This document shows, piece after piece, positions 14,758-34,142 of a DNA stretch of 64,000 bases. Positions within the stretch are counted from its first letter, which is position 1. The number at the start of each line of letters is the position of its first letter. Origin of the DNA: Escherichia coli (GTDB taxonomy: Bacteria; Pseudomonadota; Gammaproteobacteria; Enterobacterales; Enterobacteriaceae); NCBI RefSeq assembly GCF_003790525.1, contig NZ_CP033635.1. One strand, written 5' to 3'. The position numbers were made by a program, and so were the translations under genes. The notes under the pieces were generated by a model. The model saw only the letters and a program-made list of their open reading frames with translations, made no database searches and had not been told where the DNA came from.

Positions 14758-16389
14758 ATGACCAACATCACCAAGAGAAGTTTAGTAGCAGCTGGCGTTT
14801 TGGCTGCGCTTATGGCAGGGAATGTCGCGCTGGCAGCTGATGTACCCGCAGGTGTCACACTGGCGGAAAAACAAACGCTGGTACGTAACAATGGTTCAGA
14901 AGTTCAGTCATTAGATCCGCACAAAATTGAAGGTGTTCCGGAGTCTAATATCAGCCGAGACCTGTTTGAAGGCTTACTGGTTAGCGATCTTGACGGCCAT
15001 CCGGCACCTGGCGTCGCTGAATCCTGGGATAATAAAGACGCGAAAGTCTGGACCTTCCATTTGCGTAAAGATGCGAAATGGTCTGATGGCACGCCAGTCA
15101 CAGCACAAGACTTTGTGTATAGCTGGCAACGTTCTGTTGATCCAAACACTGCTTCTCCGTATGCCAGTTATCTGCAATATGGGCATATCGCCGGTATTGA
15201 TGAAATTCTTGAAGGGAAAAAACCGATTACCGATCTCGGCGTGAAAGCTATTGATGATCACACATTAGAAGTCACCTTAAGTGAACCTGTTCCGTACTTC
15301 TATAAATTACTTGTTCACCCATCAACTTCACCGGTGCCAAAAGCCGCTATCGAGAAATTCGGCGAAAAATGGACCCAGCCTGGTAATATCGTCACCAACG
15401 GTGCCTATACCTTAAAAGATTGGGTCGTAAACGAACGAATCGTTCTTGAACGCAGCCCGACCTACTGGAACAACGCGAAAACCGTTATTAACCAAGTAAC
15501 CTATTTGCCTATTGCTTCTGAAGTTACCGATGTCAACCGCTACCGTAGTGGTGAAATCGACATGACTTATAACAACATGCCGATCGAATTGTTCCAGAAG
15601 CTGAAAAAAGAGATCCCGGACGAAGTTCACGTTGATCCATACCTGTGCACTTACTATTACGAAATTAACAACCAGAAACCGCCATTTAATGACGTGCGTG
15701 TGCGTACCGCACTGAAATTGGGTATGGACCGCGATATCATTGTTAATAAAGTGAAAGCGCAGGGCGACATGCCCGCCTATGGTTACACTCCACCATATAC
15801 TGATGGCGCAAAATTGACTCAGCCGGAATGGTTTGGCTGGAGTCAGGAAAAACGTAACGAAGAAGCGAAAAAACTGCTGGCTGAAGCGGGTTATACCGCA
15901 GACAAACCGTTGACCATCAACCTGTTGTATAACACCTCCGATCTGCATAAAAAGCTGGCGATTGCTGCCTCTTCATTGTGGAAGAAAAACATTGGTGTAA
16001 ACGTCAAACTGGTTAACCAGGAGTGGAAAACGTTCCTCGACACCCGTCACCAGGGCACTTTTGATGTGGCCCGTGCAGGCTGGTGTGCAGACTACAACGA
16101 ACCAACTTCCTTCCTGAACACCATGCTGTCGAACAGCTCGATGAATACCGCGCATTATAAGAGCCCGGCCTTTGACAGCATTATGGCGGAAACGCTGAAA
16201 GCGACTGACGAGGCGCAGCGCACAGCTCTGTACACTAAAGCAGAACAACAGCTGGATAAGGATTCGGCCATTGTTCCTGTTTATTACTACGTGAATGCGC
16301 GTCTGGTGAAACCGTGGGTTGGTGGCTATACCGGCAAAGATCCGCTGGATAATACCTACACCCGGAATATGTACATTGTGAAGCACTAA
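14758..16389 (+). CDS. oppA: oligopeptide ABC transporter periplasmic binding protein
   Basis: start chosen at MTNITKRSLVAAGVLAALMAGNVALA signal peptide; substrate-binding family 5 fold; first gene of opp operon. Confidence 0.92.
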   Translation: MTNITKRSLVAAGVLAALMAGNVALAADVPAGVTLAEKQTLVRNNGSEVQSLDPHKIEGVPESNISRDLFEGLLVSDLDGHPAPGVAESWDNKDAKVWTFHLRKDAKWSDGTPVTAQDFVYSWQRSVDPNTASPYASYLQYGHIAGIDEILEGKKPITDLGVKAIDDHTLEVTLSEPVPYFYKLLVHPSTSPVPKAAIEKFGEKWTQPGNIVTNGAYTLKDWVVNERIVLERSPTYWNNAKTVINQVTYLPIASEVTDVNRYRSGEIDMTYNNMPIELFQKLKKEIPDEVHVDPYLCTYYYEINNQKPPFNDVRVRTALKLGMDRDIIVNKVKAQGDMPAYGYTPPYTDGAKLTQPEWFGWSQEKRNEEAKKLLAEAGYTADKPLTINLLYNTSDLHKKLAIAASSLWKKNIGVNVKLVNQEWKTFLDTRHQGTFDVARAGWCADYNEPTSFLNTMLSNSSMNTAHYKSPAFDSIMAETLKATDEAQRTALYTKAEQQLDKDSAIVPVYYYVNARLVKPWVGGYTGKDPLDNTYTRNMYIVKH

Positions 16390-16474
16390 TGGCAATACGT
16401 GGGGCAGGAGTGTCCTGCTCCACGGTGTCTGATTTTTATCGCATTACAGAAGGCACAGGCCAGAAGGTAGGGCA

Positions 16475-17395
16475 ATGTTAAAATTTATTCTACGTCGCTG
16501 TCTGGAAGCGATTCCGACGCTATTTATTCTTATTACTATTTCGTTCTTTATGATGCGCCTCGCACCGGGCAGTCCTTTTACCGGCGAACGTACTTTACCA
16601 CCGGAAGTGATGGCCAATATCGAAGCGAAATATCATCTTAATGATCCGATCATGACACAGTATTTCAGCTACCTGAAACAACTGGCGCATGGCGATTTCG
16701 GTCCATCGTTTAAATATAAAGATTATTCGGTCAACGACCTGGTTGCATCCAGTTTTCCCGTTTCTGCCAAACTGGGAGCCGCAGCATTTTTCCTTGCGGT
16801 AATACTGGGTGTTAGTGCTGGCGTTATTGCCGCATTAAAACAAAACACCAAATGGGACTATACCGTGATGGGGCTGGCAATGACCGGGGTTGTTATCCCC
16901 AGTTTTGTGGTTGCGCCATTATTAGTCATGATATTTGCGATCATTTTGCATTGGCTGCCGGGCGGTGGCTGGAATGGTGGTGCGCTTAAATTCATGATAC
17001 TGCCAATGGTGGCGTTGTCACTCGCCTATATCGCCAGTATTGCGCGTATTACCCGTGGCTCTATGATTGAAGTATTACACTCCAACTTTATTCGTACTGC
17101 CCGGGCGAAAGGGTTACCTATGCGGCGGATCATTTTACGCCACGCATTAAAACCTGCTCTGTTACCCGTGCTCTCCTATATGGGCCCTGCATTTGTCGGC
17201 ATTATTACCGGTTCTATGGTCATCGAAACCATTTATGGTTTGCCGGGGATTGGGCAATTGTTCGTTAATGGTGCATTGAACCGTGACTATTCCTTAGTGT
17301 TAAGCCTGACCATCCTGGTTGGTGCTTTAACCATTTTGTTTAATGCCATTGTCGATGTGCTATATGCGGTTATCGACCCGAAAATCCGTTACTGA
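16475..17395 (+). CDS. oppB: oligopeptide ABC transporter permease
   Basis: 306 aa multi-TM permease. Confidence 0.92.
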   Translation: MLKFILRRCLEAIPTLFILITISFFMMRLAPGSPFTGERTLPPEVMANIEAKYHLNDPIMTQYFSYLKQLAHGDFGPSFKYKDYSVNDLVASSFPVSAKLGAAAFFLAVILGVSAGVIAALKQNTKWDYTVMGLAMTGVVIPSFVVAPLLVMIFAIILHWLPGGGWNGGALKFMILPMVALSLAYIASIARITRGSMIEVLHSNFIRTARAKGLPMRRIILRHALKPALLPVLSYMGPAFVGIITGSMVIETIYGLPGIGQLFVNGALNRDYSLVLSLTILVGALTILFNAIVDVLYAVIDPKIRY

Positions 17396-17409
17396 TACTG
17401 GAGCTCGCG

Positions 17410-18318
17410 ATGATGTTAAGTAAGAAAAACAGCGAGACGCTGGAAAATTTCAGTGAAAAGCTGGAGGTCGAAGGGCGCAGCTTGTGGCAGGACGCACGTC
17501 GACGTTTTATGCATAACCGTGCGGCGGTTGCCAGTCTGATAGTGCTGGTGCTGATCGCGTTATTTGTCATCCTGGCACCGATGCTTTCGCAGTTTGCCTA
17601 TGACGATACTGACTGGGCGATGATGTCCAGCGCCCCGGATATGGAGTCCGGTCACTACTTTGGTACTGACTCATCTGGTCGCGACCTGCTTGTGCGCGTT
17701 GCGATTGGCGGGCGTATCTCACTCATGGTCGGTGTTGCTGCGGCACTGGTGGCAGTGGTCGTGGGGACACTTTATGGTTCGCTTTCCGGTTATCTGGGCG
17801 GTAAAGTGGATTCGGTAATGATGCGTCTGCTGGAAATCCTCAACTCCTTCCCATTCATGTTCTTCGTCATTTTGCTGGTGACCTTTTTCGGTCAAAACAT
17901 CCTGCTGATTTTCGTGGCGATTGGCATGGTTTCCTGGCTGGATATGGCTCGTATTGTGCGTGGGCAAACCCTGAGTCTGAAGCGCAAAGAGTTTATTGAG
18001 GCGGCACAAGTTGGCGGTGTATCGACGCCGGGCATTGTTATTCGCCACATTGTGCCGAACGTACTCGGTGTGGTGGTGGTCTACGCATCGCTATTGGTGC
18101 CCAGCATGATCCTCTTTGAATCTTTCCTTAGCTTCCTGGGGTTGGGGACGCAAGAGCCGTTAAGCAGCTGGGGCGCATTGCTGAGTGATGGCGCGAACTC
18201 GATGGAAGTCTCTCCATGGTTACTGTTGTTCCCAGCGGGATTCCTCGTGGTGACGCTATTTTGTTTCAACTTTATCGGCGATGGCTTGCGTGATGCCCTC
18301 GACCCGAAAGATCGTTAA
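17410..18318 (+). CDS. oppC: oligopeptide ABC transporter permease
   Basis: 302 aa multi-TM permease. Confidence 0.92.
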   Translation: MMLSKKNSETLENFSEKLEVEGRSLWQDARRRFMHNRAAVASLIVLVLIALFVILAPMLSQFAYDDTDWAMMSSAPDMESGHYFGTDSSGRDLLVRVAIGGRISLMVGVAAALVAVVVGTLYGSLSGYLGGKVDSVMMRLLEILNSFPFMFFVILLVTFFGQNILLIFVAIGMVSWLDMARIVRGQTLSLKRKEFIEAAQVGGVSTPGIVIRHIVPNVLGVVVVYASLLVPSMILFESFLSFLGLGTQEPLSSWGALLSDGANSMEVSPWLLLFPAGFLVVTLFCFNFIGDGLRDALDPKDR

Positions 18319-18329
18319 GGAGTGCAGCC

Positions 18330-19343
18330 ATGAGCGTAATTGAAACTGCAACTGTGCCGCTCGCACAACAACAGGCTGACGCACTGCTGAACGTGAAAGA
18401 TTTGCGTGTCACCTTTAATACCCCGGACGGCGACGTCACGGCGGTCAATGATCTGAATTTTTCCCTACGTGCCGGAGAAACGCTGGGCATTGTAGGTGAG
18501 TCTGGTTCGGGTAAATCGCAAACTGCATTTGCGTTGATGGGCCTGTTGGCTGCCAACGGACGTATTGGCGGATCGGCAACCTTCAATGGGCGTGAAATCC
18601 TCAATTTGCCAGAGCGTGAACTCAATAAACTGCGCGCTGAACAAATCTCAATGATTTTTCAGGACCCAATGACTTCGTTGAATCCCTATATGCGCGTCGG
18701 TGAGCAGTTGATGGAAGTGCTGATGCTGCATAAGAACATGAGCAAAGCTGAGGCGTTTGAAGAGTCGGTGCGGATGCTCGATGCGGTAAAAATGCCGGAA
18801 GCGCGTAAACGCATGAAAATGTACCCGCACGAATTTTCTGGCGGCATGCGTCAGCGAGTTATGATTGCGATGGCATTGCTATGTCGACCTAAGCTGCTGA
18901 TTGCGGATGAACCCACTACTGCGCTGGACGTCACCGTACAGGCGCAGATCATGACGCTATTGAATGAACTGAAGCGGGAATTTAATACCGCCATCATTAT
19001 GATTACCCACGATCTTGGCGTGGTGGCGGGGATCTGCGACAAAGTGCTGGTAATGTACGCCGGGCGCACGATGGAATATGGCAACGCGCGCGATGTCTTT
19101 TATCAACCCGTTCATCCTTATTCTATCGGTTTGCTCAACGCGGTGCCGCGTCTCGATGCGGAAGGTGAAACAATGTTGACCATCCCTGGTAATCCGCCAA
19201 ACCTGCTGCGATTACCGAAAGGTTGCCCGTTCCAGCCACGTTGTCCGCATGCGATGGAAATTTGTAGTAGCGCACCGCCGCTGGAAGAGTTTACGCCTGG
19301 CCGTCTGCGTGCTTGCTTTAAACCGGTGGAGGAACTGTTATGA
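18330..19343 (+). CDS. oppD: oligopeptide ABC transporter ATP-binding protein
   Basis: Walker A GESGSGKS, signature FSGGMRQR, Walker B LLIADEPTTALD. Confidence 0.92.
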   Translation: MSVIETATVPLAQQQADALLNVKDLRVTFNTPDGDVTAVNDLNFSLRAGETLGIVGESGSGKSQTAFALMGLLAANGRIGGSATFNGREILNLPERELNKLRAEQISMIFQDPMTSLNPYMRVGEQLMEVLMLHKNMSKAEAFEESVRMLDAVKMPEARKRMKMYPHEFSGGMRQRVMIAMALLCRPKLLIADEPTTALDVTVQAQIMTLLNELKREFNTAIIMITHDLGVVAGICDKVLVMYAGRTMEYGNARDVFYQPVHPYSIGLLNAVPRLDAEGETMLTIPGNPPNLLRLPKGCPFQPRCPHAMEICSSAPPLEEFTPGRLRACFKPVEELL

Positions 19344-20344
19344 ATGCTGTAACCGAAGGAAGAAAAGTCCTCCTCGAAATCGCCGATCTGAAAGTGCACT
19401 TTGAAATCAAAGATGGCAAACAGTGGTTCTGGCAACCGCCGAAAACGCTCAAAGCCGTCGATGGTGTAACTCTTCGCCTGTATGAAGGGGAAACATTAGG
19501 TGTGGTAGGGGAATCGGGATGCGGTAAGTCCACCTTTGCTCGCGCCATCATCGGTTTGGTCAAGGCGACCGACGGTCATGTTGCCTGGTTAGGTAAAGAG
19601 TTGCTGGGCATGAAGCCCGATGAATGGCGTGCCGTTCGCAGTGATATTCAGATGATTTTCCAGGATCCGTTGGCATCGCTGAACCCGCGTATGACCATCG
19701 GCGAGATCATCGCTGAACCACTGCGTACTTATCATCCGAAAATGTCACGCCAGGAAGTTCGCGAGCGCGTGAAGGCGATGATGCTGAAAGTCGGGTTATT
19801 GCCTAACCTGATTAACCGCTATCCGCATGAGTTCTCTGGTGGGCAGTGCCAGCGTATCGGGATTGCACGTGCACTTATTCTTGAACCGAAGCTGATTATC
19901 TGTGATGAGCCGGTGTCGGCGCTGGATGTGTCAATTCAGGCGCAGGTGGTCAACCTGCTCCAGCAGTTACAACGTGAGATGGGATTGTCATTAATTTTTA
20001 TCGCTCACGACCTGGCCGTGGTAAAACACATTTCCGATCGTGTGTTGGTGATGTATCTCGGCCATGCGGTAGAACTGGGGACCTATGATGAGGTCTACCA
20101 CAATCCACTACATCCTTACACCAGGGCATTGATGTCGGCAGTCCCCATACCTGATCCGGATCTGGAGAAGAACAAAACCATCCAGTTACTGGAAGGGGAA
20201 TTACCGTCGCCGATCAACCCGCCTTCCGGTTGTGTTTTCCGTACCCGTTGCCCGATTGCCGGTCCGGAGTGCGCCAAAACACGTCCTGTGCTGGAGGGCA
20301 GTTTCAGACACGCCGTTTCTTGCCTGAAAGTCGATCCACTTTAA
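19340..20344 (+). CDS. oppF: oligopeptide ABC transporter ATP-binding protein
   Basis: Walker A GESGCGKST, signature FSGGQCQR, 4-bp overlap with oppD. Confidence 0.92.
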   Translation: MNAVTEGRKVLLEIADLKVHFEIKDGKQWFWQPPKTLKAVDGVTLRLYEGETLGVVGESGCGKSTFARAIIGLVKATDGHVAWLGKELLGMKPDEWRAVRSDIQMIFQDPLASLNPRMTIGEIIAEPLRTYHPKMSRQEVRERVKAMMLKVGLLPNLINRYPHEFSGGQCQRIGIARALILEPKLIICDEPVSALDVSIQAQVVNLLQQLQREMGLSLIFIAHDLAVVKHISDRVLVMYLGHAVELGTYDEVYHNPLHPYTRALMSAVPIPDPDLEKNKTIQLLEGELPSPINPPSGCVFRTRCPIAGPECAKTRPVLEGSFRHAVSCLKVDPL

Positions 20345-20353
20345 ACACAATAA

Positions 20354-20378
20354 GGGCTGACAGTTGTCAGCCCTTTTT
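20354..20378 (+). terminator. rho-independent terminator after oppF
   Basis: hairpin gggctgaca-gt-tgtcagccc followed by TTTTT. Confidence 0.7.
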
Positions 20379-20396
20379 CACGCCGAAAGCGATTAT

Positions 20397-22221
<1,825 letters not shown>

Positions 22222-22591
22222 AGATTAGAAATCCTTTTGAAAGCGCATTGTTATGAGTTTACGCATATGGATTCATCTGGCAAATAAAAACGCGGGAAAA
22301 GCACTGGTCAGCGTCGGGGGGGGGGGTATAATGACCATTCTGTTATTGCATAGAGTAGTTAACATGAAGCGGAGTAGAACGGAAGTGGGGCGCTGGCGCA
22401 TGCAGCGTCAGGCTAGCCGACGTAAATCGCGTTGGCTTGAGGGGCAGTCGCGCCGAAATATGCGTATCCACAGCATCAGGAAGTGCATTCTAAACAAACA
22501 GCGTAACTCGTTATTGTTTGCGATCTACAATATCTAAATGTACTGGGCACCATTGCGGTGCCCAATAAGTTTACTCTTCCGTCTTTAAAGT

Positions 22592-23845
22592 CTATTTTTG
22601 CGCTGATTCTTTATTGTCAGCTTTCGTTTCTTGTTCATCGTTATCGCTGAAAATACCATGACCGGAGTTCAACAACATTGAAACGAGCATATCATTATTA
22701 ATCTCTTCACCATTTAAAACTCGTGCCAGAATTTCGCTGCCAAACAGTTGCGGCGAGAGAATGATATCCGGATGTACCATCTTAATCTTATTCAGGTTTT
22801 TGCTATCACTGACGGCGAGAACTGTTTTGACATCACTGCTCATATCTTTTGCCGAGAGTACAACAAACGCGTTATCTGCATCGTTATCACTCAGCGCCAG
22901 AATGGCCCGGCATCGATCGATTCCTGCTTTCTTTAATACTGAACTGTCATTACTGTCACCGGGGATAACATCAGCGTTATCACCTAAGCGTTGCTCAAGT
23001 TGCTTGATATCATCTTCAGGCAAGTTGCTGATAACCGTTACATTTTGTCCGCGTTGATTCAGTTGCAGAATCGTATTGATGGCGAGAATCGAATGTCCGC
23101 AAACAATAAAATGATCTTTACGATGCATTGTATGATTGTTTCCTTTTACAAGTTTGTTGAATCCCCCGCGGATAAGCGGGCCAAAAATTGAAGTCATGGA
23201 GGTGGCAAAAACGGTAATGCCGGAAATAATGACCGAAATAGTGAACAATCGTGCTGATTCAGAAACAGGGACAATATCGCCGTAGCCGACGGTTGACATG
23301 GTTTCTATCGAAAAATAGAACGCGGTCATCAAACTTTCTATTCGCGGATTAAAACCTTCGCTTAAATAAAGCGCACCGTAGGTGGAGTAAAACAGTAACG
23401 TCGTGAAACTAATAAATGCGAAAATTGTCCCGGCTGCGGCGCTACTGTGGGAGAAGTCTTTGCGCAGTATCAGCAAAAACACCAGCGTAAAAATGCAAAA
23501 TCCAATACTAAATTTCAGCCAGGGATAAAAATGCAGGGTGTAAATTAGCGCTATCAACAACAAAATGATACTGATTGCCCATGCGAGCTTTGCCCGGAAC
23601 AGTAAGCCAATGGAGTTCAGGACAAGAAAGACGCCGAGCATAAATAGAGGGGCGTTTGCCAGCAAGGAGAGATCCAACTCTGAAAATGCTTTGATATGGA
23701 AAATATCTAGCAAATTGACCGACATACCATAGATTGTTTTAAAAATAAGCAATCCATTTAAAAAGACGGCCAGCGCGAGAATGTCGTGCCGTAGGGTCAC
23801 CCATAAATTAGTTGCTGTTTGTTTGAATGTAGCCCAGTGACTCAC
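22592..23845 (-). CDS. kch: voltage-gated potassium channel Kch
   Basis: TM helices, selectivity filter TVGYGD, C-terminal RCK/TrkA-like domain; start placed at GTG giving MSHWATF (417 aa). Confidence 0.88.
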   Translation of the reverse strand: MSHWATFKQTATNLWVTLRHDILALAVFLNGLLIFKTIYGMSVNLLDIFHIKAFSELDLSLLANAPLFMLGVFLVLNSIGLLFRAKLAWAISIILLLIALIYTLHFYPWLKFSIGFCIFTLVFLLILRKDFSHSSAAAGTIFAFISFTTLLFYSTYGALYLSEGFNPRIESLMTAFYFSIETMSTVGYGDIVPVSESARLFTISVIISGITVFATSMTSIFGPLIRGGFNKLVKGNNHTMHRKDHFIVCGHSILAINTILQLNQRGQNVTVISNLPEDDIKQLEQRLGDNADVIPGDSNDSSVLKKAGIDRCRAILALSDNDADNAFVVLSAKDMSSDVKTVLAVSDSKNLNKIKMVHPDIILSPQLFGSEILARVLNGEEINNDMLVSMLLNSGHGIFSDNDEQETKADNKESAQK

Positions 23846-24348
23846 TGATACCTCTGTAACCACAATTTTGTTTAATTATCTCAACGTGCACATTTTCTGA
23901 ACATACATGCAGCGCGTGAATGTGTTAAACAATAGTAGATGACTTTATCCGCAGTAATCAAAGGTTTTGAGTGAGCAACTCTGCGTCAGGAAAGGGCATT
24001 TTCCTGAATATGTTCACATCATATAAAGAAATACAGATAAAGTTATTATCTGCTTGTGGTGGTGAATGCACTGACCGACCTATAAGGAAAGGCCAAACAA
24101 GAACACGGTTGCAAAAACCGTGCCCTTAAATATTGAATTTCTATTCAGAACACTTTCTTAAAATGTCATTCAGACCATTTCGAAGAATTTCGCATAAAAA
24201 CGTTCTGTTACGTTGAACCCTTACGCCATCTGCCTTTCAGCCCCTAAGCCATCACACTTCGAGTACAAGTGTTACATTGCGGGTATCTTTGAGCAACGAG
24301 TTTTGTGTACACTTTTGCGTACTCGCAAGCCAGATGTGTACACATTCA

Positions 24349-25407
<1,059 letters not shown>

Positions 25408-25408
25408 A

Positions 25409-25828
25409 TCAGGGAATATTCAGGTAGCAAACGCAAGCTCAGGAACCACATGGAGCTTTATGAAATCAACTGGTAACGCTGTAGCGCCTGGAGCATGGGT
25501 TCCGAATTCAGATGGCCGCCTGAAAGATGGAGTGTCCAGAATTGGAGACCCGCTCAGTAAGATGGAAATGCTAAAAGGTTGTTCCTGGACGCGAAAAGAT
25601 ACCGGACAATGGGGGATTGGGTTTATCGCGCAGGATGTTAAGAAAATCTTCCCCCAGGCAGTAACTGAGGGAGGTGATCGTCAACTTCCTGATGGAACTA
25701 TGGTGGAAGGAGTACTCTCTCCAGATACTTACGGCGTTGCGGCAGCGTTGCATCATGAAGCGATTCTGGCACTAATGAACGAACTCAGTGAATTACGAGA
25801 AGAAGTGAATGCGCTGAAAAGTGAGTAA
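25409..25828 (+). pseudogene. phage tail fibre/tailspike C-terminal fragment (intramolecular chaperone-like domain)
   Basis: translation ...NSDGRLKDGVSRIGDPLSKMEMLKGCSWTRKD...ELSELREEVNALKSE resembles the self-cleaving chaperone C-terminus of tail fibres; no N-terminal part, starts at the IS boundary. Confidence 0.45.
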
Positions 25829-25916
25829 GGGAATCATTCTTATAATCTGGAAGCCGCAACCACGCCGGATTGTACTTAATCAGTGTGACGGTTCAAGGCG
25901 TTTAATCTGAAAACAG

Positions 25917-26144
25917 CTACATATCAGTCTCTTCAAACATTTCCTGAACAGTACGGCTTATCTGTTCATTCTCATGCTTGTTGGCGTCAGTGTTGATCGC
26001 CGGCAATGTCATCATCGGTTTAACCCGGACATCAGCGCCGGGGAAAATCCGGTGAACCCTCTTGGTCAACTCGCCCAGAATGATATCTTTTGCACCGGGC
26101 AGTCCATCAAAATTCCTTTTGCCATAAACGAGTTCCACGAACAT
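25917..26144 (-). CDS. DinI-family (damage-inducible protein I / MsgA-like) protein
   Basis: 75 aa, MFVELVYGKRNFDGLPGAKDIILGELTKRVHRIFPGADVRVKP... matches DinI family pattern. Confidence 0.65.
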   Translation of the reverse strand: MFVELVYGKRNFDGLPGAKDIILGELTKRVHRIFPGADVRVKPMMTLPAINTDANKHENEQISRTVQEMFEETDM

Positions 26145-26219
26145 TGCTCATTGCCTCTTTACTGGGTGTATATACAGTATTTATACTGTGTTTTTATCCG
26201 GTATTCAAGAGAGGGCGTA

Positions 26220-26573
26220 ATGATGCCACGACGCAGCGATATTGAAATAGCCTGGTATTCTTCGATACAGCAAGAGCCGAATGGCCGGAAGACCGTCACT
26301 ACACAGCGATTTGTTCAGGGGTTGAGCAAAGTTAACTGGGAATTCTCACTCAAAGATGCTAATGCCTGGATCGAATCCAGCGTGAGCACTTTTAAATATT
26401 TATCAATGGTAGAGGGGGAAGAACGCACTTTCATGCTCTATAGCCTTGATTTATGCGATGCACATTTCCACAACCTAGTCAGGACAACCTCTTTTCTAAT
26501 AAAATGTAGATGCCTAATTTTAGGCGTCTACATAATTAATGATGATTTATTACAATTATTTTCTAGATACTAA
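26220..26573 (+). CDS. hypothetical protein
   Basis: ATG at 26220 with gagaggg RBS upstream; earlier part of the listed ORF is antisense to the DinI-like gene; 3' end runs into AT-rich DNA. Confidence 0.3.
   Translation: MMPRRSDIEIAWYSSIQQEPNGRKTVTTQRFVQGLSKVNWEFSLKDANAWIESSVSTFKYLSMVEGEERTFMLYSLDLCDAHFHNLVRTTSFLIKCRCLILGVYIINDDLLQLFSRY
26504..26533 (-). terminator. hairpin terminator downstream of the sulfatase-like gene
   Basis: 12-bp inverted repeat atgtagatgcct-aatttt-aggcgtctacat, T-rich flank on minus strand. Confidence 0.5.
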
Positions 26574-28363
26574 TCGTGAAATAATGACATTGAATAAATC
26601 CACGACGGGGTCATGTTAATTAACTTATCATAATTAAAGTTATCACTGTTTTCACAGACATGCTTTGCGTTGTGATTAAATGATACCAATCCAGATTGAA
26701 TGAAATGTTTATCAACTAATGAAGATACACAGAAAAAAGGTTTTCCATTGGCGTCGGTTATGAATTTTTTAATGGCGTCTTTATCATTTGATTTAATAAG
26801 TACAGGAACATCACCAAAATCGAGTGGGGTTGTGCTCATTTTAAAGACGAAATCTTCATCTTTTTCTTCTCCGATTTTGTTGAAAATATTACTTGGTAGC
26901 ACCCCATTTTCGACGAAATATTTATTTAGTGGTGGTTTATGGTCACCGTAAAAGACGATTACAGCATTTGGATCTATTTTTTCTACTTGCTGTGAAAATT
27001 GAACGAATCTTTTGACTGCCTCATTAATCTCATAGGTATAAACACCTTCACCATAATCATTAATGTGTTGATAAGGACCATGAGTTGACATAGTGATCAA
27101 ATGTACAAAAATATCTTTGTTTCCTGCATTTTGGATGGCTTTTAATGCTGCATTGTAAAGCAGGTAGTCATCAGGTTGCCACTGCCATGGTTTTTTAATA
27201 CTGCTATACTCTGGTGGTAAATCTCCCATATTAATAATGCTATCAAATCTATCAAATCCAAATTTAGGGTAAATTTTATTCCTATACCAAAAGTCTGCTT
27301 GGTAATTATGTGCTGCGAAAGTAATATAGCCTTTGTTTTTCAGGGCATTAGGTAATGCGTCAACTTTTGGTTTGAATGCATCTGAATATTCTTGATAGAT
27401 GATTCCTGATATTTTATCTGAATTACTTGGTAGTCCTGTCAGCATTTCAAATTCGGCATTTGCGGTACCTCCACCGTAAACTGGTGAGATGGCCCGTAAT
27501 TCACTGTAACCTTCATCAATAACAGGTTTGAAATTTTCTCGGAAGTTTTTTTTATCATACCAACATGATTCACATAAAACATAAATAATGGTTTTATTTT
27601 TTATATGAGTGGATACTAAAGATCTTTTTTCATCTAAATATCTTAATTGTTCTGCATCAGTTGCATGTGGTACAGATTTTCTGACACTTGTTTGTATTAT
27701 ATGCATTGGCAAGCCATTAACGCCAATATTTTGAGACCAATTCCAGTAAATATATTTTATATTTAAGTTGTTCGCGCTGGAGTTTATGATTTCAGAAATC
27801 CTATTGTTAGGGCTAAAAATGGTTCCAATATAGGGGTAGAATGAAAAGGGGATCGTAATGATAATTAAAAGAAATAACGATATATAATTTTTTCTTGTTG
27901 TGACCGTTTTTTTGCTAAGTAGGATTGAGATTATTGCGCCAATTAGAATAGCGACAGAGTAAGTAATGGATGATAAGTTGAGGTATTTTCCTGCGACACT
28001 CAAATTGAATCCAGAAACAATGTCATTAAATGATAAAGGCTCACCGGTTAACGCCATTTTAGTACTGTTCACAAACATCAATGTTATAATTGCGATGCCT
28101 GATAAATAAGAACATAGAAAAATTGGAATGTTTATTATTCTAAATAACAAATAAATAAACAAAATGGGGGATGAACGCCAGATGAAATTCAATATTGCAC
28201 CAATTAACTCTTTAGGCGGTTCAATATTTCCTATGATAACTATTGACTGATTTAGAAAACAAAATAAGTACAATAAAAACATAACGTTGACAATGTCGAA
28301 AACATATGATTTCAACTTTAAGTTTTTATATCTTGTAACGACTTTGCTCAAACCGATACTCAT
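26570..28363 (-). CDS. sulfatase/LTA-synthase-like membrane protein (alkaline phosphatase superfamily; possible phosphoglycerol or phosphoethanolamine transferase)
   Basis: 597 aa; N-terminal multi-TM region, C-terminal domain with metal-site-like motifs HLITMSTHGPYQ and VIVFYGDHKPP; visibly AT-rich compared with flanks. Confidence 0.7.
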   Translation of the reverse strand: MSIGLSKVVTRYKNLKLKSYVFDIVNVMFLLYLFCFLNQSIVIIGNIEPPKELIGAILNFIWRSSPILFIYLLFRIINIPIFLCSYLSGIAIITLMFVNSTKMALTGEPLSFNDIVSGFNLSVAGKYLNLSSITYSVAILIGAIISILLSKKTVTTRKNYISLFLLIIITIPFSFYPYIGTIFSPNNRISEIINSSANNLNIKYIYWNWSQNIGVNGLPMHIIQTSVRKSVPHATDAEQLRYLDEKRSLVSTHIKNKTIIYVLCESCWYDKKNFRENFKPVIDEGYSELRAISPVYGGGTANAEFEMLTGLPSNSDKISGIIYQEYSDAFKPKVDALPNALKNKGYITFAAHNYQADFWYRNKIYPKFGFDRFDSIINMGDLPPEYSSIKKPWQWQPDDYLLYNAALKAIQNAGNKDIFVHLITMSTHGPYQHINDYGEGVYTYEINEAVKRFVQFSQQVEKIDPNAVIVFYGDHKPPLNKYFVENGVLPSNIFNKIGEEKDEDFVFKMSTTPLDFGDVPVLIKSNDKDAIKKFITDANGKPFFCVSSLVDKHFIQSGLVSFNHNAKHVCENSDNFNYDKLINMTPSWIYSMSLFHD

Positions 28364-28471
28364 ATTAATGCTCTATCTCTAGAATAATGAACTTTTATGC
28401 AGAATATCACAAAATGACATTTTGGTTAAATAAATCATGGTAGTCTCTCTTACTAATCATGAGTTTAAAAT

Positions 28472-28729
28472 CTAATTAGTAGAGTATCTAATCTGTCTTT
28501 GGTATGTGTAAAAATCCAGGTTTATCCCACCATCCGGGGCGTATCCCCAGAAAACTGGATCAAGATGGAGTTTCTCGTCACGTTCGCTCAGAAGCAGAAC
28601 TTTGGTGCCTGGCGCAACGTTGAAACGTCCGATCGGTTCAGGGTCATATGGAATGTCTTGCTCGACTTCATCTGCGAGAAGGGCGAGATAGTCTTCACGC
28701 GTCATTGACTGTGAAAAGCGTCCGCACAT
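28472..28729 (-). pseudogene. SOS-response-associated peptidase (SRAP/YedK-like), truncated
   Basis: begins MCGRF (Cys2 nucleophile hallmark) but is only 85 aa, far shorter than an intact family member; C-terminus diverges next to the AT-rich insert. Confidence 0.55.
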
Positions 28730-28881
28730 AGAAACCTCCAGCCAGATGTCAGACTGAAAGTATAAGTCGTAGCGAAAAAAAAGGGGCGCTTAGATTAATG
28801 TGTACTTAAATGCGCCCTTTATTATTGATTATGTTGACTGTCTTTCGTTATTGCTTTGAATTTAAATAATATTTAATTTAT

Positions 28882-29178
28882 TCAAAACACTTTCTTAAAT
28901 GGTTTCACTGAAACGTGTTCATAGACTCCTGCCGCTACGTACGGGTCAGCATCGGCCCAGGCCTGAGCTGCTTCCAGCGACTCAAATTCAGCAATAACGG
29001 TTGAGCCAGTAAATCCCGCAGCCCCTGGATCGTTACTGTCTACTGCTGGCATTGGACCGGCGGTCAACAAACGACCTTCATCATGCAGTAACTGTAAACG
29101 TGCTAAATGTGCCGGACGAACGGAAAGGCGTTTTTCGAGGCTATCAGCTTTGTCTTGAGCGTAAATAACATACAACAC
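28882..29178 (-). CDS. yciI: YciI-like protein
   Basis: start placed at in-frame GTG giving 98 aa ([10 protein letters not shown]...); located beside tonB. Confidence 0.8.
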
Positions 29179-29401
29179 AGGCACAACTCCTTGTTCGGGA
29201 AAGTTGTAAAGTACGTTATTTGAAAGGGCGAAGATCTGCAACGGAAAGATGATGTCTTTGTTAAGACCATGCATAAAGTAAGGTCAATTACGCCAAAAAT
29301 GACATTTTCACTGATCCTGATCGTCTTGCCTTATTGAATATGATTGCTATTTGCATTTAAAATCGGGGCCTGGTTTTTCTACTGAAATGATTATGACTTC
29401 A

Positions 29402-30118
29402 ATGACCCTTGATTTACCTCGCCGCTTCCCCTGGCCGACGTTACTTTCGGTCTGCATTCATGGTGCTGTTGTGGCGGGTTTGATCTATACCTCGGTACAT
29501 CAGGTTATTGAACTACCTGCGCCCGCGCAGCCGATTTCTGTCACGATGGTTGCGCCAGCGGATCTCGAACCGCCACAAGCCGTTCAACCACCACCGGAGC
29601 CGGTGGTAGAGCCAGAACCGGAACCTGAGCCGATCCCTGAACCGCCAAAAGAAGCTCCGGTGGTCATTGAAAAGCCGAAGCCGAAACCTAAGCCAAAACC
29701 GAAGCCGGTGAAAAAGGTGGAGCAGCCAAAACGCGATGTCAAACCCGTAGAGTCGCGTCCGGCATCACCGTTTGAAAATACGGCACCCGCGCGCCCGACA
29801 TCAAGTACGGCAACGGCTGCAACCAGCAAGCCGGTTACCAGTGTGGCTTCAGGACCACGCGCATTAAGCCGTAATCAGCCGCAGTATCCGGCACGAGCAC
29901 AGGCATTGCGCATTGAAGGGCAGGTTAAAGTTAAATTTGATGTCACGCCAGATGGTCGCGTGGATAACGTACAAATCCTCTCAGCCAAGCCTGCGAACAT
30001 GTTTGAGCGTGAAGTGAAAAATGCGATGCGCAGATGGCGTTATGAGCCGGGTAAGCCAGGCAGTGGGATTGTGGTGAATATCCTGTTTAAAATTAACGGC
30101 ACTACCGAAATTCAGTAA
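29402..30118 (+). CDS. tonB: energy transducer TonB
   Basis: start at [17 protein letters not shown]; Pro-rich EP/KP repeats; C-terminal domain ...[19 protein letters not shown]... Confidence 0.92.
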
Positions 30119-30157
30119 GCATAAAGTCAAAAGCCTCCGACCGGAGGCTTTTGACTA

Positions 30158-30556
30158 TTACTCAACAGGTAAGGCGCGAGGTTTTCCTTCAGGATCAACC
30201 GCGACATACTTAAATAATGCTTCTGTCGCTTTATAGCGTTGCCCGATGGGTTCAGACGCGACTTTTTTCACCCACACTTCAATATTAATGCTGACCGATG
30301 TCGTCCCTTTCTGGACACAGCGTGCATAGCAGCACACCACATCGCCGACCGCAACCGGTCGTAAGAAAGTCATTCCTTCAACCCGCACGGTCACTACACG
30401 ACCGTGGGCAATTTCTTTCGCCAGAATAGCGCCGCCAATATCCATTTGTGACATTAACCAACCACCAAAGATGTCACCATTGGCATTGGTATCGGCGGGC
30501 ATGGCTAAAGTACGTAAAACAAGATCGCCCTGAGGGACGTTATGTGTTGTAGACAT
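30158..30556 (-). CDS. yciA: acyl-CoA thioester hydrolase (hotdog fold)
   Basis: 132 aa, position after tonB. Confidence 0.88.
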   Translation of the reverse strand: MSTTHNVPQGDLVLRTLAMPADTNANGDIFGGWLMSQMDIGGAILAKEIAHGRVVTVRVEGMTFLRPVAVGDVVCCYARCVQKGTTSVSINIEVWVKKVASEPIGQRYKATEALFKYVAVDPEGKPRALPVE

Positions 30557-30660
30557 GGTAAAACCGACTTAAAAGGAAAATCACAGGCGCGATGCTACTA
30601 TGATTTTCCTGAGGAGAACAGAGGAGATACAGCGCCAGCCCCGAAGGACTGGCAGTCTGG

Positions 30661-31200
30661 TTAGGATTTATCTTCCTGCGGCATGTGGCGGTAGATATAG
30701 ATACCGCTTAACAATGTGAAGATTAAGGTAAGGGCGGTCAGGCCAAAGACTTTAAAGTTGACCCAAATATTTTGCGGCAGCCAGAATGCGATGTAGATGT
30801 TTGCCAGGCCGCAAAGGATAAAGAAAACAGCCCAGGCCAGATTCAGCTTCGACCATACCGATTGCGGCAGGGTGAGTTCTTTACCCAGCATCCGCTGAAT
30901 TAGCGGCTTTTTCATCACCCATTGACTGACTAACAGGGCACCCGCAAACAGGGCATAAATGACAGTAACCTTCCATTTAATAAACTCATCATTGTGGAAG
31001 AACAGCGTTAAGCCACCGAAGACGACCACCAGAACAAAAGTGATCAGGGCCATCTTCTCAACCTTACGAAAGCGAACCCAGCTATAGATAAGCACAATCG
31101 CCGTGGCGACGATGAGCGCCGCAGTAGCCGCATAGATGTCATAAATCTTGTAGAACGCGAAAAAGACAACCAGCGGTAAAAAATCAAGAAACTGCTTCAT
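30661..31200 (-). CDS. yciB: inner membrane protein YciB (intracellular septation protein A family)
   Basis: 179 aa multi-TM. Confidence 0.88.
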
Positions 31201-31229
31201 TTTACGATTCCGTAATCAAATGCTTAAGG

Positions 31230-31973
31230 TTATTGGCGAATCAACATATACAGGCGGAACAGATAGATGAGCAATACGGCTGAAATCAGGTTGCTCAAGG
31301 TGTTCGCCAGTACGGCACCAATTTCCGGGGTTAATGCGGCAAAAGAAGAGGCAAAAAGCAGCAACAGTGTTTTTGCCAGCAACCAGCTCAGTACTGCGGG
31401 TGCCACCAGACGCATATTCGCCCATGTCAGCCGCATACTGCTACGCATCGAGGCAAAAATGCCCATTTTGTCCTGTACCAACATCACCGGTGCCAGAGCC
31501 AGTAAAATGGCCATGATAATTCCCGGAACGACCACCAGCATGATGCCAATCTGTACTAAAAGGGTAGTCAGAAAAATCAGAATAAATAACTTTGGCAATA
31601 TCGGCGCACTGGCACCAATAGCTCGAAGCGCACTGACTCTCTGACCCGCAGACACCAGCTGGATAATTAATATTACGCCTCCGGCTAGAATGGCGTTACC
31701 GATTAATCCTGAAAAAGTGGACGCCGCTGAAGCCTGCAGCAAAATTTGTTGCTGTTCAGGTGACATATTCTGAACCAGGTCGAACAACCCACTACTGCCG
31801 CTAACGGGCACGCCGTCATTGAGCTGAGCAAGCTGTGCATCACTGGGTGAGAAAACATGCCCTAACACCACTGTGATAAACGCACATAGCAACGATACCA
31901 ACAGAATGGTCATAAATTGATTACGGAAGAAATTTCCGGTGTCACGGTATACGGACTGCGCCGTGATAGACAT
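31230..31973 (-). CDS. yciC: inner membrane protein YciC
   Basis: 247 aa multi-TM. Confidence 0.88.
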
Positions 31974-32327
31974 GCACTCTCCTTGAGTTTTATGCAGGTG
32001 TTAATTAGCGGGCAATTGTACCCTGGTTAAGCCTCGGGTGGCAGCATCAGGTCTTGTATGGAAAAGCATATCTTTGTAAAGCGGAGGTAATTGCGGGTCT
32101 AAGCTATGGGCAAACCGCAGCAAGTGGCGAGCGAGTTAATGTTTGCGTAGTGAAATATATAGGAATTGATTTAAATCACATTAACCAGGATTCACAGTGC
32201 AACTTCTAAATTAATCCAGATCAATAAAGGGTGAATTATCATATATAATGTGATCTGTGTAGGATCATTTGTTACTCCAATGTGGGTATATTCGTCACGT
32301 TTTTATAACCATAACGACGGAGCGGAT

Positions 32328-32966
32328 ATGAAAAAGTTAACAGTGGCGGCTTTGGCAGTAACAACTCTTCTCTCTGGCAGTGCCTATGCGCATGAAGCAG
32401 GCGAATTTTTTATGCGTGCAGGGTCTGCAACCGTACGTCCAACAGAAGGTGCTGGTGGTACGTTAGGAAGTCTGGGTGGATTCAGCGTGACCAATAACAC
32501 GCAACTGGGCCTGACGTTTACTTATATGGCGACCGACAACATTGGTGTGGAATTACTGGCTGCGACGCCGTTCCGCCATAAAATCGGCACCCGGGCGACC
32601 GGCGATATTGCAACCGTTCATCATCTGCCGCCAACACTGATGGCGCAGTGGTATTTTGGTGATGCCAGCAGCAAATTCCGTCCTTACGTTGGGGCAGGTA
32701 TTAACTACACCACCTTCTTTGATAATGGATTTAACGATCATGGCAAAGAGGCGGGGCTTTCCGATCTCAGTCTGAAAGATTCCTGGGGAGCTGCCGGGCA
32801 GGTGGGGGTTGATTATCTGATTAACCGTGACTGGTTGGTTAACATGTCAGTGTGGTACATGGATATCGACACCACCGCCAGCTATAAATTTAATGGAACC
32901 CCCGTGAAAGACGCGGTACGACTGGATCCGTGGGTGTTTATGTTCTCTGCCGGATACCGCTTCTAA
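32328..32966 (+). CDS. ompW: outer membrane protein W
   Basis: start at MKKLTVAALAVTTLLSGSAYA signal peptide; beta-barrel ending ...SAGYRF (212 aa). Confidence 0.92.
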   Translation: MKKLTVAALAVTTLLSGSAYAHEAGEFFMRAGSATVRPTEGAGGTLGSLGGFSVTNNTQLGLTFTYMATDNIGVELLAATPFRHKIGTRATGDIATVHHLPPTLMAQWYFGDASSKFRPYVGAGINYTTFFDNGFNDHGKEAGLSDLSLKDSWGAAGQVGVDYLINRDWLVNMSVWYMDIDTTASYKFNGTPVKDAVRLDPWVFMFSAGYRF

Positions 32967-33002
32967 TTTTCTCTGCAAAACCTCTGCAAAACTCTTCTGC
33001 AA

Positions 33003-33029
33003 AACTGGTTATCAAATAACCAGTTTTTT
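33003..33029 (+). terminator. ompW terminator hairpin overlapping the prophage integrase stop codon (probable attL core region)
   Basis: perfect palindrome aactggttat-caa-ataaccagtt followed by TTTTTT; int stop codon lies at 33012-33014 inside the hairpin. Confidence 0.55.
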
Positions 33030-34142
33030 CCACTCTTTACCGCGTGCGTCGTTGTAAATATCGGTCATTTTTTGATTCGAATGGCCCAGCAAAATTTTGG
33101 TATCAATTCCCTGTTCTCTGAACAATCGTTCTGATAAAGATCTTTGCTCATGGAAAGAGGGTGGCGTGCCATTAGCACGCCAGTTGTAATCCACAGAATC
33201 CCGGGCTTTTTTAAATGCGACTGTTAATGTTGCTGGTTTAACCATCCCGCCGCGCTTACCCATCCCCTTAGCGTGATGATGGTGCAATAACCACGGACTA
33301 AGGATGTAATCACGACAGGATGACACCACGTCACCCAGGGTAAGATTTAATTTGTCGCAACGCAGAGCCAGAGGAATGGCTATCCGGGCTCCTGTTTTTT
33401 GCTGTTCGACATGAAGGTAACCATCCCGGATATCCGAAAACTGCATTTTGCAAATATCCGAAAGACGCTGGCCCGTCATCAGTGCCAGCAGCATGCCGCG
33501 CTGTAAAAAGTAACCATCCTTTTCCGCTGCGTTATAAATCATCATCCACTCATCAAAAGTCAGTCGCTGTCTTGATATCCGCACTTGCGGTTTTTTTGCC
33601 GATTCAGCCGGGTTAAAGCCTGGCGGAACATCACCAGTTTGTTGAGCCTCCCGGAAAACATCGATCAATACCTTCCTGAAAATTTGTCCCATTCTGTTAT
33701 GTCCCTTTGCCTTGTATTCTTCCAGCACCGATACCACATCTTTTACGGTTATGGCATCTAGCGGCCTGGCTCCAAAACGTTCATCAAACACCCTGAGAGG
33801 AGCCGCTTTTTGCTTCAGCGTGCTGAGTTTGATCTCTCCGTTCTCATATCTTTCCTGTTGAATTTTTCTGTAATTATTCAGAAAAATGGAAACGGTTGAT
33901 GCGCCGCCGGTATCACTAATAATTTTCTCCTGCAGACTGAGCATTTGCTCCATTTGTTGTCTGGCAAGACGGCTGTTCGCTTCTGCTGAAATGGTTTCCG
34001 CCAGTTTCTGGTCAATACTGCCGAGTCCATGATTTTTACCTGTGATGGGATTCCTGTAACGCCAGTAAACTTTGTTATTTCTTTTGTCAAAATACGGAGA
34101 TAAACCCGGAACATCGGTTTTATATTTTCTCGGGCGCGCCAT
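33012..34142 (-). CDS. int: prophage tyrosine integrase
   Basis: 376 aa, lambda-Int-like catalytic C-terminus (...HEQRSLSERLFREQGIDTKILLGHSNQKMTDIYNDARG) with catalytic Tyr in DIYND. Confidence 0.9.
   Translation of the reverse strand: MARPRKYKTDVPGLSPYFDKRNNKVYWRYRNPITGKNHGLGSIDQKLAETISAEANSRLARQQMEQMLSLQEKIISDTGGASTVSIFLNNYRKIQQERYENGEIKLSTLKQKAAPLRVFDERFGARPLDAITVKDVVSVLEEYKAKGHNRMGQIFRKVLIDVFREAQQTGDVPPGFNPAESAKKPQVRISRQRLTFDEWMMIYNAAEKDGYFLQRGMLLALMTGQRLSDICKMQFSDIRDGYLHVEQQKTGARIAIPLALRCDKLNLTLGDVVSSCRDYILSPWLLHHHHAKGMGKRGGMVKPATLTVAFKKARDSVDYNWRANGTPPSFHEQRSLSERLFREQGIDTKILLGHSNQKMTDIYNDARGKEWKKLVI

What the first reader, a model, noticed from the sequence alone, without database searches (positions are those of the whole stretch)
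28472..28729. Truncated SRAP (MCGRF) gene at the islet edge
The ORF starts with the MCGRF motif that defines SOS-response-associated peptidases (Cys2 nucleophile for abasic-site crosslinking) but is only 85 aa, and its C-terminus diverges into unrelated sequence next to the AT-rich insert. Likely a gene decapitated by the insertion.
Basis: partly seen in the sequence, partly recalled or inferred. Interest (0 to 1): 0.3.

Follow-up and report, generated by a model that had tools for sequence, protein, structure and literature searches.

The report
Dead SRAP gene stub in prophage remnant
This is the broken front third of a phage-borne copy of the DNA-repair gene yedK, left in a decayed 4.7-kb prophage between kch and yciI of E. 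coli; it is an ordinary pseudogene that public annotation already labels as such.

Summary
An 85-codon ORF on the minus strand (28729→28472) starts with MCGRF. Its first 65 residues match E. coli YedK residues 1-65 (PDB 6kcq, E 3e-36).

It is a gene remnant, not a small paralog:
- DNA homology to four intact 208-223-aa prophage SRAP genes stops at base 28519, inside codon 71.
- A 1-nt deletion in a C-run (plus-strand G4 at 28536-28539) shifts the frame after residue 65.
- Catalytic Asn75, Glu105 and His160 are missing.

The stub was not a host gene cut by an island. It is the last gene of a degraded prophage (24163-28867). That prophage is bounded by a roughly 32-34-bp direct repeat overlapping the 3' end of yciI.

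Inside the prophage, a 2,074-bp block of 32% GC (about 26445-28518) carries an intact 597-aa LTA-synthase-family gene. The block replaced the 3' two-thirds of the SRAP gene and the last few codons of a convergent small phage gene.

"Decapitated" is therefore the wrong word: the head is kept and the tail is lost.

NCBI's PGAP annotation of strain SMS-3-5 already marks it as a pseudogene ("frameshifted; incomplete; missing C-terminus"). The same stub occurs in 30 of 5,426 complete E. coli genomes, always in this context. Interest is low.

The parts
28519..28729 (-). 5' remnant of a prophage SRAP (YedK-paralog) gene: 211 bp corresponding to codons 1-71 of about 222
   Evidence: YedK PDB match E 3e-36. 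blastn to four intact prophage SRAP genes (L002, L004, L005, L007) always starts at 28519, or 28518 for L007. Alignments. PGAP pseudogene in SMS-3-5 maps to window 28506-28729.
28536..28539 (-). Frameshift site: a 1-nt deletion, GC(C/T)CCCGG in intact relatives versus GCCCCGG here
   Evidence: All four intact comparators carry one more base in this run. Translation in the shifted frame restores PGWWDKP.
28472..28518 (-). Tail of the 85-aa ORF read from the AT-rich block (codon 71 straddles the junction; codons 72-85 and the stop lie in the block); unrelated to SRAP
   Evidence: No homology to intact SRAP genes beyond 28519; GC 29.8%.
28730..28786 (-). Native 5' region of the SRAP gene. GGAGG ribosome-binding site at 28735-28739, a -10-like TATACT at 28759-28764, and a hairpin (28734-28761) pairing ACUUUC with the ribosome-binding site
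   Evidence: Region conserved in intact homologues from E. coli AH01, E. coli 20A24 and Gifsy-2. Hairpin listed. Promoter function is inferred, not shown.
28776..28819 (-). GC-stem hairpin (GGGCGC...GCGCCCC) followed by T8 on the minus strand. Probably an intrinsic terminator supplied by the prophage just downstream of yciI
   Evidence: Sequence. RNA fold -15.8 kcal/mol, z = -2.06. Function is inferred.
28868..28899 (.). attR: right copy of the direct repeat; overlaps the last 5 sense codons and the stop codon of yciI
   Evidence: K-12 kch-yciI intergenic sequence aligns to the window twice, at 24129-24162 and 28868-28899. Repeat D2. Homology to 5,400+ other E. coli genomes begins at 28868.
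24129..24162 (.). attL: left copy of the direct repeat
26445..28518 (.). AT-rich replacement block (2,074 bp, GC 32.0%). The left junction is approximate (about ±10 bp)
   Evidence: GC profile and counts. Right junction. Left junction from the end of the phrog_3893 match and the PGAP pseudogene end. Found only in the same 30 E. coli genomes and only in this context. No flanking direct or inverted repeats.
26570..28363 (-). Intact LTA-synthase / phosphoglycerol-transferase-family gene (597 aa), co-directional with and downstream of the SRAP stub
   Evidence: Pfam Sulfatase PF00884, E 2.8e-27. Homologues of 589-611 aa cover 94-100% of it at 45-66% identity in Citrobacter, Pragia, Kosakonia and Enterobacter.
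26220..26444 (+). Small phage gene (phrog_3893), convergent with the SRAP stub, retaining 74 of 79 profile positions; its last few codons were replaced by the AT block
   Evidence: PGAP calls it 'hypothetical protein, incomplete, missing C-terminus'.
25917..26144 (-). DinI-like gene of the prophage remnant, with a LexA-box-like site TACTGGGTGTATATACAGTA at 26160-26179 just upstream
   Evidence: Pfam DinI E 3.5e-15. LexA pattern hit at 26162-26177 with 1 mismatch. Sequence.
25352..25828 (+). C-terminal fragment of a phage tail-fibre gene
   Evidence: Pfam Peptidase_S74. phrog_1980 tail fibre, profile positions 299-435 of 449.
24476..25402 (-). IS3-family element remnant bounded by 28-nt inverted repeats
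   Evidence: Inverted repeat I1. PGAP labels it an IS3-family transposase pseudogene. SMS-3-5 carries a further 1.33-kb insertion here that the window lacks; PGAP annotates an IS3-family transposase within it.
24349..24477 (+). N-terminal (arm-DNA-binding) stub of a tyrosine integrase, next to attL
   Evidence: PGAP: 'Arm DNA-binding domain-containing protein, incomplete, missing C-terminus' (mapped with the offset). Found only in the same 30 genomes.

Best explanation
The 85-aa ORF is a pseudogene: the 5' third of a prophage-borne paralog of yedK (SOS-response-associated peptidase). A temperate phage integrated at a roughly 32-34-bp site overlapping the 3' end of yciI. Its SRAP gene was the last gene before attR and was transcribed inward. 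A similar end arrangement is seen in E. coli 1943 and 20A24 prophages and, one step in from the end, in the AH01 prophage. The prophage then decayed to 4.7 kb. Within it, an illegitimate recombination event replaced the DNA between the 3' end of a small convergent phage gene and codon 71 of the SRAP gene with a 2.07-kb AT-rich block. That block carries an intact LTA-synthase-family membrane enzyme gene. A separate 1-nt deletion in a C-run shifted the SRAP frame after codon 65. What remains encodes Cys2 and about 65 native residues. It lacks Asn75, Glu105, His160 and two-thirds of the fold, so it cannot form the abasic-site thiazolidine crosslink. Shown: the homology, breakpoint, frameshift, att repeats and islet content. 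Inferred: the order of events, loss of function, and that the stub may still be transcribed from its conserved 5' region into the downstream cargo gene.
For: Residues 1-65 match YedK 1-65. In the corrected frame the match runs to P71 and then stops. Four intact relatives all lose DNA homology at 28519, and all carry one more base in the C-run. GC drops from 52.1% to 32.0% at the junction. K-12 has no SRAP here: its 299-bp kch-yciI spacer aligns to both edges of the islet, giving the att duplication. The other genomes listed begin matching at 28868. The islet holds an integrase stub, an IS3 remnant, a tail-fibre stub, a DinI-like gene and a phage small gene. Intact relatives show DinI - S24 peptidase (± Y-family polymerase) - SRAP at or close to the prophage end. 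PGAP independently calls it 'frameshifted; incomplete; missing C-terminus'. It is identical in 30 independently assembled complete genomes. The catalytic roles of Cys2, Asn75, Glu105 and His160 come from PMC9436759.
Against: No intact progenitor prophage at the yciI site was found among 5,426 E. coli genomes. The replaced segment and the order of events are therefore reconstructed only by analogy with prophages at other sites, whose SRAP genes are 76-89% identical in DNA to the stub. The start codon, ribosome-binding site and conserved upstream region are intact, so expression of an 85-aa peptide cannot be excluded. The integrase stub reads inward from the att copy distal to yciI. This could mean the islet is a composite of more than one element.
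Confidence: 0.93

Rival explanations
1. The stub persists because it now serves as promoter and 5' leader for the co-directional AT-rich LTA-synthase-family gene (promoter capture). On this reading its retention is functional even though SRAP activity is lost.
For: The stub and the cargo gene are on the same strand, 108 bp apart, and the scan found no terminator-like site between them. The SRAP upstream region and ribosome-binding site are conserved with intact homologues. A terminator-like hairpin upstream insulates the unit from yciI.
Against: The AT block has its own promoter-like site (28512-28483). In Citrobacter phage Chris1 an independent SRAP stub lies convergent to its neighbouring cargo gene. 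Other SRAP stubs have unrelated causes: an IS next to the stub, a frameshift, or lone remnants. There are no expression data.
Confidence: 0.15
2. The ORF is a complete, functional small SRAP-like paralog.
For: The ORF is open with a good ribosome-binding site. It is identical in 30 genomes, and near-identical 85-aa proteins turn up in metagenome assemblies (P0012, P0020).
Against: The identity reflects one clonal islet in one context. Homology ends at a sharp DNA junction with a GC step. There is a frameshift inside homologous DNA. Three of the four catalytic residues are missing. The NCBIfam YedK-subfamily model scores 145 bits against a cut-off of 349.
Confidence: 0.03
3. A resident chromosomal SRAP gene was cut by insertion of the AT-rich islet (the literal reading of the finding).
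For: The stub abuts AT-rich DNA.
Against: K-12 and the other genomes listed have nothing between kch and yciI but a 299-bp spacer. The stub lies inside the att-bounded islet. The chromosomal yedK sits elsewhere, next to yedL, and was matched in 5,377 of 5,426 genomes.
Confidence: 0.02
4. The truncation or frameshift is a sequencing or assembly artefact.
For: The frameshift lies in a homopolymer, which is a typical error site.
Against: The same sequence appears at 100% identity in most of the 30 complete genomes, from different laboratories and hosts. The 3' truncation is a 2-kb structural difference, not a base-call error.
Confidence: 0.01

Closest known systems
E. coli YedK (SRAP, PF02586; PDB 6kcq, 6nua, 2icu)
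   Same: Same N-terminal MCGRF motif with the Cys2 nucleophile. High identity over residues 1-65, and the GWWDKP motif (66-71) is recoverable after frame correction.
   Different: Only 71 of 222 codons remain. It is frameshifted, lacks Asn75, Glu105 and His160, and sits in a prophage remnant rather than at the yedK-yedL locus.
Intact prophage-end SRAP genes (E. coli 1943 WP_096035061.1, AH01 WP_114211938.1, 20A24 WP_001514219.1; Gifsy-2)
   Same: 76-89% DNA identity over the retained 211 bp. The upstream region and ribosome-binding site are conserved in AH01, 20A24 and Gifsy-2. In 1943 and 20A24 the gene holds the same position, last before the prophage end and transcribed inward. AH01 and 20A24 have neighbouring SOS-type genes: DinI, S24 peptidase, Y-family polymerase.
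   Different: Those genes are full length (208-223 aa) and lie in prophages at other integration sites. The AH01 and Gifsy-2 copies are not the terminal gene. In the window the SOS-type neighbour slot is occupied by an AT-rich LTA-synthase-family gene.
SRAP 5' stub in Citrobacter phage Chris1 (ON041214, unannotated)
   Same: An independent case: only the first 82 nt of an SRAP gene survive, beside a foreign cargo gene (GGDEF/EAL), between the dinI/msgA-like gene and the attachment site and integrase.
   Different: The breakpoint differs (codon 27 versus 71), the cargo differs and is convergent, and the integrase and attachment site differ.

Membership tests
SRAP / YedK family (PF02586), as a functional member | N-terminal Met-Cys2 (MCGRF) nucleophile motif | tested here: met
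   The ORF starts MCGRF and aligns to YedK residue 1 onward.
SRAP / YedK family (PF02586), as a functional member | Significant sequence match to the family model | tested here: met
   Pfam 30.8 bits against a gathering score of 27.1, but covering only profile positions 1-65 of 214. PHROG phrog_1599 E 3e-20, positions 1-69 of 225.
SRAP / YedK family (PF02586), as a functional member | Full-length domain (about 200-230 aa) reaching the curated YedK-subfamily score | tested here: not met
   NCBIfam NF007413 scores 145 bits against a cut-off of 349, matching positions 1-73 of 222. Homology ends at codon 71.
SRAP / YedK family (PF02586), as a functional member | Catalytic Asn75, Glu105 and His160 (YedK numbering; PMC9436759) | tested here: not met
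   All three lie beyond the breakpoint. They are present in the intact comparators and absent here.
SRAP / YedK family (PF02586), as a functional member | Uninterrupted reading frame | tested here: not met
   A 1-nt deletion relative to four intact relatives. PGAP flags it 'frameshifted'.
SRAP / YedK family (PF02586), as a functional member | Covalent crosslinking to abasic sites in ssDNA | not testable with these tools
   This needs biochemistry. A negative result is predicted from the missing residues.
Integrated prophage remnant | Direct repeats (att) flanking DNA that is absent from the empty site | tested here: met
   The K-12 spacer aligns to 24129-24162 and 28868-28899. The 4.7 kb between them is absent from K-12.
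Integrated prophage remnant | Integrase gene next to an att site | tested here: inconclusive
   Only a 43-codon arm-binding-domain stub remains. Its PHROG match is weak.
Integrated prophage remnant | Phage structural or accessory genes | tested here: met
   Tail-fibre C-terminus, DinI-like gene and phrog_3893 gene. The same gene order appears in the prophage of strain AH01.

The most novel reading that the evidence does not exclude
The SRAP stub has been co-opted. Its conserved promoter, leader and ribosome-binding site, insulated from yciI by a phage-supplied terminator, now drive read-through expression of the foreign AT-rich LTA-synthase-family enzyme. The slot between the dinI-like gene and the attachment site would then be a recurrent cargo-exchange site in enterobacterial temperate phages, where the 5' end of the SRAP gene tends to survive (as also seen in phage Chris1).
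Probability: 0.12. Interest if true: 0.3.

Novelty: already known. Interest (0 to 1): 0.08.

Why it matters
It matters little. The result shows that the ORF should not be counted as a gene or as a second SRAP activity in this lineage, and that the islet between kch and yciI is a decayed prophage. The one element here that may affect phenotype is the intact, foreign LTA-synthase-family membrane enzyme that displaced the SRAP 3' end. The locus is a tidy textbook example of cargo replacement at a prophage end, but it opens no new question.

Tried and rejected
- **Intact progenitor in E. coli.** I searched 5,426 complete genomes with the stub, the AT block and the integrase stub. Each was found only in the same 30 genomes, always in this context.
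- **Phage collection.** It returned only partial relatives: Gifsy-2, Chris1, PHB10 and Erwinia phages.
- **Transposon-type ends.** I looked for direct or inverted repeats around the AT block that would mark a transposon insertion. None were found at the junctions.
- **LexA box upstream of the stub.** None was found. The only good LexA-box match in the islet is upstream of the dinI-like gene.
- **Recurrent breakpoint or cargo pattern.** I asked whether the many short SRAP N-terminal proteins in public data share a breakpoint or a co-directional cargo. Their end points are scattered. Three sampled contexts have unrelated causes: an IS240-family transposase next to the stub in Klebsiella, a broken chromosomal yedK in E. 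coli, and a lone remnant in Enterobacter. That search listed only proteins under 125 aa, so it says nothing about how frequent stubs are compared with full-length genes.
- **Context of LTA-synthase-family homologues.** Their neighbourhoods are varied accessory regions, none next to an SRAP gene.

Full report
**Observation**

The minus strand carries an ORF from 28729 down to 28472, 85 codons, beginning MCGRF. Pfam SRAP (PF02586) matches residues 1-66 to profile positions 1-65 of 214, at 30.8 bits against a gathering score of 27.1. The solved E. coli YedK structures match at E = 3e-36, residues 1-66 to 1-66.

**Where the gene breaks**

I took three full-length prophage SRAP proteins (222-223 aa) from E. 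coli strains 1943, AH01 and 20A24. Aligned with the ORF, they are colinear through A64-P65, after which the ORF reads DGGINLDFY....

At the DNA level there are two separate lesions:
- **A frameshift.** All four intact relatives, including Gifsy-2, read GC(C/T)CCCGG where the window reads GCCCCGG. This is a 1-nt deletion at the plus-strand G4 run 28536-28539. Translating in the shifted frame restores PGWWDKP, which is YedK 65-71.
- **A truncation.** Homology to every intact relative ends after ...GATAAACC, at window base 28519, inside codon 71. blastn alignments to L002, L004 and L005 all begin at 28519, and the alignment to L007 begins at 28518.

So 211 bp of an approximately 669-bp gene survive. 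Residues 66-70 of the ORF are a frameshifted reading of homologous DNA. Residues 71-85 come from unrelated AT-rich DNA (GC 29.8%, against 52.1% for the homologous part).

Asn75, Glu105 and His160, together with Cys2, form the YedK active site (PMC9436759). All three lie beyond the break. They are present in the intact comparators.

The NCBIfam YedK-subfamily model scores 145 bits against a cut-off of 349, matching positions 1-73 of 222.

**Context: a decayed prophage**

The window is E. coli, identical or nearly so to strain SMS-3-5 from 14716 to 32968, apart from a 1.33-kb insertion present in SMS-3-5 and absent from the window.

In K-12, kch and yciI are separated by 299 bp. That spacer aligns to the window twice. 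It runs up to 24162 on the left and resumes at 28868 on the right. The stretch AATATTGAAT..TATTCAGAACACTTTCTTAAA is present at both edges, at 24129-24162 and 28868-28899. This duplicated segment overlaps the last five sense codons and the stop codon of yciI.

Megablast matched 5,422 of 5,426 genomes to the flanking region. Only the 30 islet carriers cover the stub portion, and the other genomes listed start matching at 28868. The 4,705 bp from 24163 to 28867 (GC 40.7%) is therefore an integrated element with att-like direct repeats.

Its content, from left to right:

| Coordinates | Strand | Feature |
|---|---|---|
| 24349-24477 | + | Integrase arm-binding-domain stub |
| 24476-25402 | - | IS3-family remnant with 28-nt inverted repeats |
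| 25352-25828 | + | C-terminal tail-fibre fragment |
| 25917-26144 | - | DinI-like gene, with a near-consensus LexA box at 26160-26179 |
| 26220-26444 | + | Small phage gene, phrog_3893, 74 of 79 profile positions |
| ~26445-28518 | . | AT-rich block |
| 28519-28729 | - | SRAP stub |
| 28776-28819 | - | Hairpin plus T8 |

**What intact relatives look like**

- In strain 1943 the order is tail-fibre assembly gene, then SRAP (inward-facing), then the prophage end beside yecD.
- In AH01 it is invertase, DinI, hypothetical gene, S24 peptidase, SRAP, followed by two more genes before the icd fragment.
- In 20A24 it is S24 peptidase, Y-family polymerase, SRAP, then the prophage end beside yciB.

In two of these three prophages the SRAP gene is the terminal gene, facing inward, and in AH01 it lies close to the end. 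In AH01 and 20A24 it sits next to SOS-type genes. The stub in the window holds the terminal position. It also keeps the conserved upstream sequence CTATACTTTCAGTCTGACATCTGGCTGGAGGTTTCTATG, which it shares with AH01, 20A24 and Gifsy-2.

**What cut the gene**

The 2,074-bp block from about 26445 to 28518 has 32.0% GC, against 46-52% on either side.

It carries one gene, 26570-28363 on the minus strand, 597 aa, with a Sulfatase/LTA-synthase domain. The gene is full length: homologues of 589-611 aa cover 94-100% of it at 45-66% identity in Citrobacter, Pragia, Kosakonia and Enterobacter.

The block removed the 3' ends of two convergent genes: a few codons of the phrog_3893 gene and 151 codons of the SRAP gene. 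No direct or inverted repeats mark its junctions and no transposase is present. I therefore read it as an illegitimate replacement of the kind that installs accessory genes in phage genomes, not a transposon insertion. This is an inference.

In E. coli complete genomes the block is found only in the same 30 genomes and only here. Whether the swap happened in the free phage or after integration cannot be resolved.

It is partly supported. Truncation, position at the islet edge and contact with the AT-rich insert are all correct. "Decapitated" is wrong, because the 5' end survives and the 3' end is lost. The protein-level divergence starts at a separate frameshift, 17 nt before the junction. And the gene is part of the horizontally acquired islet rather than a host gene disrupted by it.

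PGAP already annotates the feature in SMS-3-5 as [quoted passage not shown]. The finding is therefore already known.

**Function**

The most likely answer is none, as an SRAP. The peptide would have Cys2 but not the catalytic Glu, His or Asn, nor most of the fold. A chromosomal yedK match, at another locus next to yedL, was found in 5,377 of 5,426 genomes. I did not check the 30 carrier genomes individually.

The start codon, GGAGG site and upstream region are intact. The cargo gene lies 108 bp downstream on the same strand, with no terminator-like site between them. Read-through expression of the cargo gene from the old SRAP promoter is therefore possible but untested. The AT block has its own promoter-like site at 28512-28483.

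**Wider pattern, checked and found unremarkable**

A database search returned 172 short (60-123 aa) SRAP N-terminal proteins from Enterobacteriaceae. Their end points are scattered.

Three sampled contexts have unrelated causes:
- an IS240-family transposase gene immediately downstream of the stub in Klebsiella;
- a broken chromosomal yedK in E. coli;
- an isolated remnant in Enterobacter.

Citrobacter phage Chris1 carries an unannotated 82-nt SRAP 5' stub beside a GGDEF/EAL cargo gene in the equivalent slot. This is a parallel case, but with convergent orientation. Together these indicate ordinary, repeated decay of an accessory gene rather than a designed feature.

**Scores**

The stub is an already annotated pseudogene of a well-characterised family. 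Novelty is "already known" and interest is 0.08.

Noticed in passing
window 26570-28363 (-): Intact 597-aa LTA-synthase / phosphoglycerol-transferase-family gene in a 32% GC block. RefSeq PGAP annotates only 496 aa (window 26570-28057), but homologues of 589-611 aa align over 94-100% of the long ORF, so the annotated start is probably about 100 codons too short. The closest relatives are only 63-66% identical, so the source is unknown. The gene may modify the cell envelope.
   Followed up: partly
window 26160-26179: Near-consensus LexA box TACTGGGTGTATATACAGTA lies between the divergent dinI-like gene and the phrog_3893 small gene. It overlaps a promoter-like site (26158-26187), so an SOS-regulated unit seems to survive in the prophage remnant.
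   Followed up: partly
window 28734-28761 (-): Upstream of the SRAP start, ACUUUC can pair with the ribosome-binding site GGAGGU in a 10-pair hairpin. The ACUUUC and GGAGGU motifs are kept in E. coli prophages 1943, AH01 and 20A24, while Gifsy-2 has a 3-nt gap at the ribosome-binding site. This could be a translational control element of prophage SRAP genes. Covariation was not tested.
   Followed up: no
window 28776-28819 and 24103-24125: Integration separated yciI from its native downstream hairpin, which now lies at the attL side (about 24103-24125). The prophage supplies a replacement GC hairpin plus T8 immediately downstream of yciI at the attR side.
   Followed up: partly
window 32968-34142: The window stops matching SMS-3-5 just after ompW (32968). 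A 376-aa phage integrase gene (33012-34142, minus strand) follows, so this strain carries a further prophage at the ompW site that SMS-3-5 lacks. Identical ompW-integrase junctions occur in several chicken and human isolates.
   Followed up: partly
window ~24988 (IS3 remnant 24476-25402): SMS-3-5 has an extra 1.33-kb insertion at this point that the window lacks; PGAP annotates a complete IS3-family transposase with programmed frameshift within it. In the window the older IS3-family remnant reads as one fused 292-aa ORF (24486-25364).
   Followed up: partly
L006 (Citrobacter phage Chris1, ON041214) 4642-4723: Unannotated 82-nt remnant of an SRAP gene 5' end (80% identical to window 28647-28728). 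It lies between a GGDEF/EAL cargo gene and the attachment site and integrase. This is an independent truncation in the same slot of a phage that was deposited as a complete genome.
   Followed up: partly
L005 (E. coli 20A24, NZ_CP147044) 2909-5212: A prophage end carrying S24 peptidase (UmuD-like), a Y-family polymerase and SRAP lies directly beside yciB, only a few genes from the yciI site used here. The yciI-yciB neighbourhood may be a repeated target for SRAP-carrying phages.
   Followed up: no
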